Shown one piece after another: positions 18,801 through 21,800 of a DNA stretch of 64,000 nt. Each line of letters opens with the position of its first letter. Position 1 is the first letter of the stretch. The stretch is from Escherichia coli. Lineage in GTDB: Bacteria > Pseudomonadota > Gammaproteobacteria > Enterobacterales > Enterobacteriaceae. Made by a program: the position numbers. Location: NCBI RefSeq assembly GCF_016903815.1, contig NZ_CP069973.1. One strand, written 5' to 3'.

Positions 18801-21800
18801 GTGCATTGATAATAAGGAGAAGTGAATGAAACTCGTGCACATGGCCAGTGGTTTAGCGGTTGCGATTGCGTTGGCGGCTTGCGCAGATAAAAGCGCGGAT
18901 ATTCAGACGCCAGCACCGGCGGCAAATACGTCTATTTCAGCAACACAACAACCTGCTATCCAGCAACCGAATGTCTCCGGTACCGTCTGGATCCGTCAGA
19001 AAGTCGCACTGCCGCCTGATGCTGTGCTGACCGTGACACTTTCTGACGCGTCGTTAGCCGATGCACCGTCAAAAGTACTGGCGCAGAAAGCGGTGCGTAC
19101 CGAAGGCAAACAGTCACCATTCAGCTTTGTTCTGCCATTTAATCCGGCAGATGTTCAGCCGAATGCGCGTATTCTGTTGAGTGCGGCGATTACCGTGAAT
19201 GACAAACTGGTATTTATTACCGATACCGTTCAGCCGGTGATCAACCAGGGCGGAACTAAAGCCGACCTGACATTGGTGCCGGTGCAGCAAACCGCCGTGC
19301 CGGTTCAGGCCAGCGGTGGCGCAACGACTACTGTACCTTCGACTTCACCAACTCAGGTGAATCCGTCTTCGGCAGTTCCAGCTCCTACGCAATATTAAGC
19401 GCAGTTAACCCTCTCCGCCCGGAGAGGGTTAGTAGTTCCAGCGATAACGCTGCAAGTCGATTTGCCCGCTTCCCGATACCATCACACCTTCTGCCAGTAA
19501 TGCCTGTCGTTGACGCTGTAAATCCGGTCCGGTTAGCGAAATTGTGCCGTGGCGATTAACCACCCGATGCCAGGGTAAGGTGCTGCCTTCAGGGAGACGC
19601 TTTAACACACCGCCCACCTGGCGCGCGGCGCGGGGCGATCCTGCCAGTTTCGCCACATCACCGTAAGTGGTGACATAGCCTTCGGGAATAGCGGCTACGA
19701 TTTGCCAGACGCGTTGGGGAAATGAATCTTCTTTTTCCATCTTTTCTTCCTGAGGTAATTTTTCAGCATAATCTGGAAAAACGCCCGAGTGAAGTCGCAT
19801 TGCGCAAGAAACCAGCATCCGGCACGCAATGGGTTGCAATTAGCCGGGGCAGCAGTGATAATGCGCCTGCGCGTTGGTTCTCAACGCTCTCAATGGGGGC
19901 TCTGTTGGTTCTCCCGCAACGCTACTCTGTTTACCAGGTCAGGTCCGGAAGGAAGCAGCCAAGGCAGATGACGCGTGTGCCGGGATGTAGCTGGCAGGGC
20001 CCCCACCCATTTCTGCCTCCCCCCGTTTCGTCAAAAAATCCCAACATGGCTAAACTTTAACCACAACTGACGTCGCAAGAATTGTCTGGCTGCGCAGTAC
20101 GCTTCGGAGGTATGTCTGATGAAGTATGTTGATGGTTTTGTGGTTGCCGTTCCTGCCGATAAAAAGGATGCCTATCGGGAAATGGCTGCTAAGGCTGCGC
20201 CATTGTTTAAAGAGTTTGGCGCGCTTCGTATTGTCGAATGCTGGGCCAGCGATGTACCGGATGGCAAAGTGACCGATTTTCGTATGGCGGTAAAAGCTGA
20301 AGAGAATGAAGAGGTTGTCTTTAGCTGGATTGAATACCCCTCAAAAGAGGTCCGCGACGCTGCTAATCAAAAGATGATGTCGGACCCACGGATGAAAGAG
20401 TTCGGCGAGTCCATGCCGTTTGATGGTAAGCGAATGATTTATGGCGGATTCGAGTCAATCATCGACGAATAGGTAGCGTGACGGGCTGTGCGGCGTGCCG
20501 TCAGCCCTACAATTCACAAATGTTGCTCGGCCCAGCGTAAGAAATCTTCTTTCGGTAATGCCTTGCTGTAGAGCCAGCCCTGACCGTAGTGCACGCCATG
20601 CTGGCGTAACCACTCTTCTTGCTTACTGGTTTCGATTCCCTCCGCTACCATTTTCAGTTTCAGTGTTTTTGCCATTTCGATGATATGCGGCGTGACATTT
20701 TTATATTCCAGCGCATCAACGAAAGATTTATCGATCTTCAGAATGTCGACATCCAGATCCTGTAAATAACTTAAACTTGAATACCCCGTACCAAAATCAT
20801 CAAGATAAATTTCATGGCCCGCCTCCCGGTAGCGAGAAATTATCGGGGCGCTGGTTTTCGGATCGGCAAACTCGCGTTCAGTGAGTTCAAGCGCGATCTG
20901 TCTGGGATTAACCTGATAGTGATTGATCATTTCACGCAGCAATTGCGGGATTTTTTCCGAGGTGAGCACGGTGGATTCAAGATTGATCGAAATATGCTGC
21001 TGCGGATGCTGACGCAGCCAGTCGCCCATATCTTCGAAGACGCTTCTTATAATCAGTAGCGTCAATGGCTCAGAAAGGCCCGTTTGCTGTGCCAGCGGAA
21101 TAAAACTATCTGGTGACAACCAACTACCGTCTGTCTGCGGCCAGCGCGCCAGTGCCTCAGCACCGACAATTTTGCCATTGGCTAAGGAGACAATCGGCTG
21201 ATAGTGCACGCAAATATCACGATTTTCGATAGCATCCTGCAGCCGATGATGTGGTGACTGGATACGGCGCAAAATACGCAGCACAAACATCGCTGCCAGC
21301 AGGCCAATCACCAACCCGAGCGGTAACCAAATAAAGACTTGCCGATGCCAGCCTTTCTGCAACATTTTCGTTGAAGCCCAGGTGATGATCGAAATATTCA
21401 TTTCCGGGAAGGGCAGGATATCGTAAATGATTCCATTATTTTCGATATGCTCACCGGGTGTTTTTTGTAGTCTGGTAATAATTCCCTGAGCAATTTCATC
21501 GCTGCTGGTTATCACAACGTTATGGGCATTGCCAATAATGGCGGCATCAATTTGCCATGAGCTATAGGGAATGACATCAATAAAGGAAGCGGGGTCGATC
21601 ATGACGACATAATGTGCCGTTCCCATGGCAACCATGTAACGGATAATGCCTAAATCGTTATGCGATGTTAACCAGACACGATAACCATCTTTCGAAATTT
21701 TACCTGGCTCGGGGAAGGTATCGGGCGGGCTTTCATGCTCCAGAGACGAACACTGGGGAACGTTGTTATCGATATAAACCACTTCCTGAATATAGCGATA

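What the first reader, a model, noticed from the sequence alone, without database searches (positions are those of the whole stretch)
19840..20118. ffs (4.5S RNA) is hidden under two spurious protein ORF calls
ORFs 19722..20060 and 19789..19971 in the six-frame track overlap the SRP RNA gene; annotating them as proteins would be an error.
Basis: partly seen in the sequence, partly recalled or inferred. Interest (0 to 1): 0.2.

Follow-up and report, generated by a model that had tools for sequence, protein, structure and literature searches.

The report
Known E. coli 4.5S RNA gene

Summary
Window 19895..20008 (+) is the 114-nt ffs gene. It is identical base for base to E. coli K-12 b0455, sits in the K-12 gene order (ybaY, ybaZ/atl, ffs, ybaA, pdeB), and scores 68.1 bits against a 40-bit gathering threshold on Rfam RF00169 (core match 19903..19999).

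It folds into the expected long hairpin with a GGAA tetraloop. Twenty distinct gammaproteobacterial orthologues support that fold: 99% of cells are paired and 14 of 40 pairs show compensatory changes.

Both ORFs exist as described (19722..20060, 112 aa; 19789..19971, 60 aa), but every coding test fails:
- Neither has a Pfam family.
- Their codon usage falls below all 29 long genes of the window and inside the shadow-ORF range.
- Their starts and stops are not kept even in E. albertii.
- Database look-alikes match only the part translated from conserved promoter, leader and ffs DNA.

The 112-aa frame has nonetheless been deposited as a 'hypothetical protein' in a few GenBank genomes, so the warning has precedent. 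The RefSeq records listed or opened annotate only ffs in this interval.

Side observation: the ffs 3' end (19988..20012) is the direct repeat flanking an integrase-bearing resistance island in another E. coli genome.

The parts
19834..19862 (+). ffs promoter-like element: -35 TTGCAA (19834..19839), 17-nt spacer, -10 GATAAT (19857..19862)
   Evidence: It is the only sigma-70-like site found in 19600..20300 (9/12 matches; 0.5 expected by shuffling, so weak on its own). It places the transcription start at about 19868-19871, that is -27 to -24 from the mature 5' end. That agrees with published 5' ends mainly at -26 and leaders of 22-24 nt (PMC5499578). The element is identical in K-12.
19869..19894 (+). 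5' leader of the 4.5S precursor, removed by RNase P; predicted small hairpin at 19871..19887
   Evidence: The leader hairpin appears in the fold of 19871..20045. RNase P processing of pre-4.5S RNA comes from the literature (PMC7049720; PMC5499578). The exact start is inferred, not measured here.
19895..20008 (+). ffs: mature 4.5S RNA (bacterial small SRP RNA), 114 nt
   Evidence: 114/114 identical to K-12 b0455. Rfam RF00169 core match at 19903..19999, 68.1 bits. The minimum-free-energy fold is a single hairpin at -57 kcal/mol, z = -3.15. Covariation: 40 pairs, 99.0% paired, 14 pairs with double changes, 0 of 500 shuffles reach this. Annotated as ffs in the RefSeq E. coli records listed; a match is present in 5424 of 5426 genomes.
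19935..19960 (+). Domain IV core (Ffh-binding internal loops plus GGAA tetraloop at 19947..19950)
   Evidence: The tetraloop closed by UCC/GGA appears in the folds. The roles of the tetraloop and distal site come from PMC4737761.
19722..20060 (+). Chance ORF, 112 aa (ATG); not a gene
   Evidence: Listed. No Pfam family. Codon score -0.168. It is 112 aa only in E. coli, 59 aa in E. albertii, and 43-179 aa with shifting ends in other genera. Its ATG lies at -173, upstream of every reported ffs 5' end (-26, -127, -153), and antisense to the 5' end of ybaZ. Deposited as 'hypothetical protein' in a few GenBank genomes.
19789..19971 (+). Chance ORF, 60 aa (GTG); not a gene
   Evidence: Listed. No Pfam family. 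Codon score -0.227. The exact sequence is absent from the 15-billion-protein collection. The 60-aa frame with these ends is found only in E. coli and E. albertii. In most other genera an in-frame stop just upstream leaves no ORF covering the ffs 5' part, and a few carry unrelated longer frames. Its stop codon is the TGA inside ffs (CAGAUGACG), which is lost wherever the RNA carries CAGACGACG.
19988..20012 (+). 25-bp TAGCTGGCAGGGCCCCCACCCATTT: last 21 nt of ffs plus 4 nt; unoccupied attachment-site-like core
   Evidence: In NZ_CP151161.1 this sequence is a direct repeat flanking an insertion of about 31 kb between ffs and ybaA. The insertion starts with a Phage_integrase-family gene. The window holds the empty site.
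19429..19740 (-). Upstream neighbour ybaZ/atl (MGMT-family DNA base-flipping protein)
   Evidence: Pfam DNA_binding_1, E 4.4e-27. RefSeq annotates 103 aa, whereas the K-12 record annotates 129 aa, which would end at window 19818.
20119..20472 (+). Downstream neighbour ybaA (DUF1428)
   Evidence: Pfam DUF1428, E 2.3e-48. Annotated as ybaA.

Best explanation
Window 19895..20008 (+) is ffs, the gene for 4.5S RNA, the RNA subunit of the E. coli signal recognition particle (SRP).

How it most likely works:
- Transcription starts from a sigma-70-type promoter (TTGCAA/GATAAT, 19834..19862), about 24-26 nt upstream of the mature 5' end.
- RNase P removes the leader, and a few 3' residues are trimmed.
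- The 114-nt product folds into one long hairpin.
- The conserved internal loops next to the GGAA tetraloop bind the M domain of Ffh.
- The tetraloop helps recruit the receptor FtsY.
- The distal end of the hairpin later docks the Ffh-FtsY GTPase dimer and triggers GTP hydrolysis, completing co-translational delivery of membrane proteins.

The ORFs at 19722..20060 and 19789..19971 are chance open frames. They run through a G+C-rich, stop-poor RNA gene and its flanks and encode nothing.

Shown here: identity, family membership, fold, covariation, gene order, a promoter-like site, and the absence of coding signal. Taken from the literature: processing and the SRP mechanism.
For: - Rfam RF00169 scores 68.1 bits against a gathering score of 40, E 5.5e-13 (alignment).
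- The sequence is 114/114 identical to K-12 ffs b0455, and the neighbours tesB, ybaY, ybaZ, ffs, ybaA and pdeB are the same.
- A match is present in 5424 of 5426 complete E. coli genomes, and the listed RefSeq records annotate it as ffs.
- The predicted hairpin has -57 kcal/mol and z = -3.15.
- Covariation on 20 distinct sequences: 99.0% of cells paired against 44-50% when the partners are slid; 14 of 40 pairs have changes on both sides; 0 of 500 shuffles reach the observed values.
- The promoter-like site is at the right distance and matches published 5' ends at -26 (PMC5499578).
- RNase P processing: PMC7049720. SRP mechanism: PMC4737761.
- Against coding: no Pfam family; codon scores below all 29 long genes; ORF ends not conserved; database look-alikes are few, all unnamed or 'hypothetical', 63-193 aa long, and similar mainly over aa 27-99.
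Against: - Nothing contradicts the ffs assignment.
- Expression, processing and Ffh binding are not measured here; they rest on identity to the characterised K-12 gene.
- The covariation alignment is dominated by close Enterobacteriaceae, and its positions 41-66 are invariant by construction, because the loci were fetched with that pattern.
- The promoter match alone is weak (9/12; 0.5 sites expected by chance).
- No canonical intrinsic terminator was found between ffs and ybaA. Termination at the 4.5S hairpin followed by ACCCAUUUCU is my inference.
- Minor published 5' ends at -153 and -127 would include the GTG of the 60-aa ORF. Its presence on an RNA is therefore not excluded; only its coding character is.
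Confidence: 0.97

Rival explanations
1. One of the overlapping ORFs (112 aa or 60 aa) is a real, lineage-specific small protein, so the locus has two functions, RNA and protein.
For: Both frames are open in all the E. coli sequences examined (window, L001, L002, L091). The 112-aa frame is deposited as a protein in a few GenBank records. Minor ffs-upstream 5' ends at -153 and -127 (PMC5499578) would carry the GTG of the 60-aa ORF.
Against: - Neither ORF has a protein family.
- Codon usage is like that of shadow ORFs and below every long gene.
- The 112-aa frame is already cut to 59 aa in E. albertii, and both frames vary freely elsewhere.
- Similarity of database hits tracks the conserved DNA of the RNA gene, not the ORF.
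- The ATG of the 112-aa ORF (-173) lies upstream of all reported 5' ends and is antisense to ybaZ.
- The RefSeq records listed or opened annotate no protein gene between ybaZ and ybaA.
- All deposited entries are automatic 'hypothetical protein' calls.
Confidence: 0.02
2. The stretch is an inactive copy or remnant of ffs, and the working gene lies elsewhere.
For: None found. Some E. coli genomes show two matching places.
Against: - The copy is full length, identical to the K-12 gene, and in the K-12 position with its promoter region intact.
- The median is one place per genome.
- In the one case examined, the second place is only the 25-bp-plus-flank repeat created by an inserted island.
Confidence: 0.005
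3. The conserved hairpin acts mainly in cis on the neighbouring genes, as a leader or terminator for ybaA or ybaZ, rather than as a stand-alone RNA gene.
For: No separate intrinsic terminator was detected between ffs and ybaA, so read-through into ybaA is conceivable.
Against: The sequence and structure are conserved in genomes from several phyla irrespective of neighbours. The match is a full-length hit to a trans-acting RNA gene family. 4.5S RNA is a characterised, essential stand-alone RNA (PMC5499578).
Confidence: 0.005

Closest known systems
E. coli K-12 ffs (b0455), 4.5S RNA; Rfam RF00169 Bacteria_small_SRP
   Same: Identical 114-nt sequence, the same flanking genes, the same promoter region, and a full-length covariance-model match.
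   Different: Nothing within the gene. The window differs from K-12 at three flanking bases (19820, 19828, 20022).
Spurious proteins translated from non-coding RNA genes (the class catalogued by AntiFam)
   Same: The ORFs lie over a conserved RNA gene. They have been deposited only as automatic 'hypothetical protein' entries. Similarity among such entries follows the RNA gene. AntiFam was built for exactly this kind of error (PMC3308159).
   Different: The two AntiFam papers searched name tRNA-derived families but do not mention SRP RNA. Whether a current AntiFam release has an SRP-RNA-derived family could not be checked with these tools.
tRNA, tmRNA and ffs genes as integration sites of integrase-bearing elements (for example Enterococcus phage phiEf11 integrating into ffs, PMC12540744)
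   Same: A 25-bp repeat covering the 3' end of ffs flanks an island that begins with a tyrosine-recombinase-family integrase. ffs is regenerated intact at the left junction.
   Different: This was seen in another E. coli genome, not in the window, which has the empty site. Only 2 of 5424 genomes share that integrase. No phage in the collection carries a matching attP core.

Membership tests
Bacterial small SRP RNA (Rfam RF00169; 4.5S RNA) | Covariance-model score at or above the curated gathering score | tested here: met
   68.1 bits against 40, covering model positions 1-97 of 97, at 19903..19999 +.
Bacterial small SRP RNA (Rfam RF00169; 4.5S RNA) | Single extended hairpin with the conserved domain IV: internal loops flanking a GNRA (GGAA) tetraloop | tested here: met
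   The minimum-free-energy and consensus folds give one hairpin. GGAA at 19947..19950 is closed by UCC/GGA. The 26-nt core is shared exactly with at least 120 contigs from several phyla.
Bacterial small SRP RNA (Rfam RF00169; 4.5S RNA) | Helices supported by compensatory substitutions among orthologues | tested here: met
   14 of 40 pairs have changes on both sides; 99.0% of cells are paired against 44-50% when slid; 0 of 500 shuffles reach the observed values. Caveat: the sequences are related, and columns 41-66 are fixed by the search pattern.
Bacterial small SRP RNA (Rfam RF00169; 4.5S RNA) | Orthology to the experimentally characterised E. coli ffs (sequence and gene order) | tested here: met
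   114/114 identity to b0455, with ybaY, ybaZ, ffs, ybaA and pdeB in the same order.
Bacterial small SRP RNA (Rfam RF00169; 4.5S RNA) | Expressed as a stable ~114-nt RNA, matured at the 5' end by RNase P, binds Ffh and supports protein targeting | not testable with these tools
   Taken from the literature for the identical K-12 gene (PMC7049720, PMC5499578, PMC4737761).
Protein-coding gene (claim for ORFs 19722..20060 and 19789..19971) | Match to a protein family, or homologues that align over the whole length | tested here: not met
   No Pfam hit at E up to 1. There are 37 small clusters, unnamed or 'hypothetical', 63-193 aa long. Outside E. coli and Shigella, all but three (two of them at only ~50% identity) align only within aa 19-106, mostly aa 27-99 or 55-98.
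Protein-coding gene (claim for ORFs 19722..20060 and 19789..19971) | Start, stop and length conserved in related species | tested here: not met
   The 112-aa frame is found only in E. coli. It is 59 aa in E. albertii and 43-179 aa elsewhere. The 60-aa frame is missing in most genera.
Protein-coding gene (claim for ORFs 19722..20060 and 19789..19971) | Codon usage like the genome's genes | tested here: not met
   Scores of -0.168 and -0.227 bits/codon, against a mean of 0.365 (minimum 0.078) for 29 long genes and a mean of -0.238 for 189 shadow ORFs.
Protein-coding gene (claim for ORFs 19722..20060 and 19789..19971) | Direct evidence of translation (ribosome profiling, peptides) | not tested
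   No such data are available through these tools.

The most novel reading that the evidence does not exclude
One of the frames over ffs is translated at a low level into an E. coli-specific peptide, which would make the SRP RNA locus a dual-function RNA/protein locus. The most plausible candidate is the 60-aa GTG frame, which the minor upstream transcripts reported at -153 and -127 would carry. The evidence here argues strongly against a conserved protein but cannot exclude lineage-specific translation.
Probability: 0.02. Interest if true: 0.5.

Novelty: already known. Interest (0 to 1): 0.05.

Why it matters
As a discovery it matters little: ffs is one of the best-characterised RNA genes of E. 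coli. Its practical value is as an annotation check. A six-frame or naive ORF track will show a 112-aa and a 60-aa frame over ffs. The 112-aa frame has in fact entered GenBank and UniRef as 'hypothetical protein' in a handful of genomes. RNA genes should therefore be masked before ORFs are called. The side observation, that the 3' end of ffs can serve as an integration site for an integrase-bearing multidrug-resistance island in E. coli, may deserve a separate look.

Tried and rejected
1. The only terminator-like hit of the scan (19886..19900) lies inside the leader and 5' end of ffs. The number found equals the shuffle expectation (1 found, 0.9 expected), so I treated it as chance.
2. A weak Rfam hit to mir-6302 on the minus strand (17.7 bits against a gathering score of 90, E 0.87) is just the reverse complement of the 4.5S hairpin. 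Rejected.
3. I searched the AntiFam papers for an SRP-RNA-derived spurious family and found no mention. I make no claim either way about current AntiFam releases.
4. I searched the phage collection for an attP-like copy of the ffs 3' end. The only full match was one unannotated 9-kb 'Escherichia phage EC22.5-2' record that contains the whole of ffs. The other two hits are 24-nt chance-level matches (E 0.4).
5. I tested whether the ~64 E. coli genomes with a broken match after ffs share one element. Only 2 share the integrase of NZ_CP151161.1. The rest were not characterised.
6. A literature search for ffs as an integration site in E. coli returned only the Enterococcus phage paper. One other hit (PMC5422975) uses 'FFs' to mean fitness factors.

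Full report
**Observation.** The region was read directly and its ORFs listed. At a 20-aa cut-off, five further short ORFs also overlap the same stretch: 19874..19990 +, 19975..20070 +, 19890..20006 -, 19931..20047 - and 19939..20034 -. These are mechanical ORFs, not gene calls.

**The RNA gene.** A scan of the whole window against Rfam at gathering thresholds gave four matches. One is RF00169 (Bacteria_small_SRP) at 19903..19999 +, with 68.1 bits against a gathering score of 40, E 5.5e-13, covering the model end to end (alignment).

**Identity and exact limits.**
- The 501 bases around the site match 5424 of 5426 complete E. coli genomes. Many are 100% identical, and the features annotated under the listed matches are 'ffs', 'ybaA' and an 'MGMT family protein'.
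- In K-12 MG1655, ffs (b0455) is annotated at 476448..476561, between ybaZ and ybaA.
- An alignment of window 19700..20130 with K-12 shows three differences, at window 19820, 19828 and 20022. All are outside the gene.
- The 114-nt gene corresponds to window 19895..20008 and is identical.
The gene fills 41% of it.

**Structure.**
- The 114 nt fold into one long hairpin (-57 kcal/mol; z = -3.15 against dinucleotide shuffles) with GGAA at 19947..19950 as the terminal loop.
- To test the fold by comparison, I scanned the genome collection for the 26-nt core CAGGTCAGGTCCGGAAGGAAGCAGCC. They come from Enterobacteriaceae, Gilliamella, Succinatimonas, Actinomycetota, Bacillota and others.
- Twenty distinct gammaproteobacterial 4.5S-type sequences were aligned (A2).
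- The consensus fold has 40 pairs, and 14 of them have at least one sequence changed on both sides with the pair kept.
- Counted against controls: 99.0% of cells are standard pairs, compared with 44-50% when the 3' partners are slid by 1-3 columns. None of 500 shuffles reaches the observed values on any of the five measures.
- Independent compensatory changes occur even within Enterobacteriaceae. Examples are pair 33-73 (C-G to U-A in Phytobacter and Kosakonia), pair 38-68 (U-A and C-G) and pair 27-80 (G-C, G-U and A-U).
- Caveats: the sequences are related, and columns 41-66 are invariant by construction because they were the search pattern.

**Expression signals.**
- The only sigma-70-like site in 19600..20300 is TTGCAA (19834..19839), a 17-nt spacer, then GATAAT (19857..19862). 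Alone it is a weak match: 9 of 12 positions, with 0.5 sites expected by chance.
- It places the start at about 19868-19871, which is 24-27 nt before the mature 5' end.
- A published study reports RNA-seq 5' ends mainly at -26, minor ones near -153 and -127, and earlier estimates of a 22-24-nt leader. [quoted passage not shown]
- A fold of 19871..20045 predicts a small leader hairpin (19871..19887) followed by the 4.5S hairpin, with no further structure downstream.
- No canonical intrinsic terminator was found between ffs and ybaA. The single terminator-like hit, at 19886..19900, is at chance level. Termination at the 4.5S hairpin followed by ACCCAUUUCU is my inference.

**Mechanism (from the literature, for the identical K-12 RNA).**
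- The hairpin-shaped 4.5S RNA binds the M domain of Ffh to form the signal recognition particle.
- The NG domain of the receptor first binds at the tetraloop in the 'early' complex.
- None of these steps is measured here. They follow from sequence identity.

**Are the ORFs genes? Five tests say no.**
1. Protein families. Neither ORF matches any Pfam family at E up to 1. The neighbours match clearly: ybaZ hits DNA_binding_1 at 4.4e-27 and ybaA hits DUF1428 at 2.3e-48.
2. Codon usage. I used a log-odds score trained on the 29 ORFs of 250 aa or more in the window.

| Sequence | Score (bits/codon) |
|---|---|
| 112-aa ORF | -0.168 |
| 60-aa ORF | -0.227 |
| 29 long genes | mean 0.365, minimum 0.078 |
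| 189 shadow ORFs of 40-150 aa inside those genes | mean -0.238 |
| ybaA | 0.256 |
| ybaY | 0.300 |

3. Conservation of the frames. In 25 enterobacterial loci with an orthologous ffs, the frame of the 112-aa ORF keeps its start (-173) and stop (+52) only in E. coli. In E. albertii it is 59 aa. Elsewhere it is 43-179 aa, with starts from -278 to -2 and ends from +16 to +304. The 60-aa ORF with these ends exists only in E. coli and E. albertii. Its stop is a TGA inside ffs that disappears wherever the RNA reads CAGACGACG.
4. Protein databases. A search of 5.8 billion cluster representatives found 37 small clusters, all unnamed or 'hypothetical', with lengths of 63-193 aa. Their similarity to the query is concentrated on aa 27-99. 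That is the part translated from the conserved promoter, leader and ffs DNA, while the termini are covered by few hits.
5. Position. The ATG at 19722 lies upstream of every reported ffs 5' end and is antisense to the 5' end of ybaZ. The GTG at 19789 would be carried only by the minor upstream transcripts.

The RefSeq records listed or opened show no protein gene between ybaZ and ybaA.

The K-12 version of the 112-aa ORF is in the public protein collection as 'hypothetical protein' in E. coli P12b (AFG39350.1), E. coli S88 (CAR01799.1), E. coli O25b:H4 (ANK05803.1) and Shigella dysenteriae WRSd3 (ESU77918.1). It also has UniRef entries. This is the class of error AntiFam was built to catch (PMC3308159). 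I could not establish whether AntiFam has an SRP-RNA-derived family.

**Side observation at the same locus.**
- In 64 of the 5424 E. coli genomes, the match to 19840..20118 covers less than 80% of the query, and 57 extra second places were counted.
- In the one example opened, NZ_CP151161.1, the match stops at window ~20012, four bases past the ffs 3' end. A 'site-specific integrase' gene follows ffs by about 110 nt. After it come hypothetical genes, IS26 copies, floR, qnrS2, an integron remnant, blaOXA-1, catB3, arr and aac(6')-Ib-cr.
- Junction comparison shows a 25-bp direct repeat, TAGCTGGCAGGGCCCCCACCCATTT (window 19988..20012), at both ends of an insertion of about 31 kb between ffs and ybaA. 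ffs is intact at the left end.
- The integrase belongs to the Phage_integrase (tyrosine recombinase) family.
- Only 2 genomes share this integrase. No phage record carries a matching attP core.
- Integration into ffs was described as novel for an Enterococcus phage in 2025 (PMC12540744). My literature search found nothing for E. coli, but that search is limited to open-access text.
- The window itself has the empty site.

**Verdict.** The feature is the known E. coli ffs gene, and the overlapping ORFs are chance frames. Novelty: already known. Interest: low.

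Noticed in passing
window 19988..20012; L123 20056..21357 and L124 38650..38960 (NZ_CP151161.1): The last 21 nt of ffs plus 4 nt (TAGCTGGCAGGGCCCCCACCCATTT) form the direct repeat flanking an island of about 31 kb inserted between ffs and ybaA in E. 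coli strain 20220828076. The island starts with a tyrosine-recombinase-family integrase and carries floR, qnrS2, blaOXA-1, catB3, arr, aac(6')-Ib-cr and IS26 copies. ffs thus serves as a tRNA-like integration site. The window has the empty site. In all, 64 of 5424 genomes show a match covering less than 80% of the query, but only 2 share this integrase; the others were not examined.
   Followed up: partly
window 19429..19839 (-): The start of ybaZ/atl is annotated differently in different records. The K-12 record gives 129 aa, with the start at window 19818, only 16 nt from the ffs -35 box. RefSeq PGAP gives 103 aa, with the start at 19740. The Pfam DNA_binding_1 match begins at residue 40 of the 136-aa maximal ORF, which fits the shorter version.
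   Followed up: no
window 8500..8595 (-), 36633..36697 (+), 51810..51893 (+): There are three further Rfam matches above gathering score in the window: sraA (106.7 bits), the DnaX ribosomal frameshifting element (96.8 bits) and sroB (81.1 bits). All are as expected for this part of the E. coli chromosome.
   Followed up: no
E. coli plasmid records (not listed) and phage record OR845144.1 298..441: Two of the ~5480 places matching the ffs region in E. coli assemblies are on plasmids. One unannotated 9135-bp 'Escherichia phage EC22.5-2' record contains the whole of ffs at 99.3% identity. A 'Caudoviricetes sp.' hypothetical protein (P0021) is a translation of an ffs region. These may be host DNA in phage or plasmid records, or junctions of integrated elements.
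   Followed up: no
L032, L092, L099 (Woesearchaeota and Nanoarchaeota MAG contigs): The exact 26-nt bacterial domain IV core also occurs in contigs assigned to DPANN archaea. This fits the universal conservation of SRP RNA domain IV, but it was not checked for contamination or binning error.
   Followed up: no
window 20009..20118: No canonical intrinsic terminator was detected between the ffs 3' end and the ybaA start codon. A GGAGG Shine-Dalgarno sequence for ybaA lies at 20107..20111. How ffs transcription ends, and whether it reads into ybaA, is not settled by sequence alone.
   Followed up: partly
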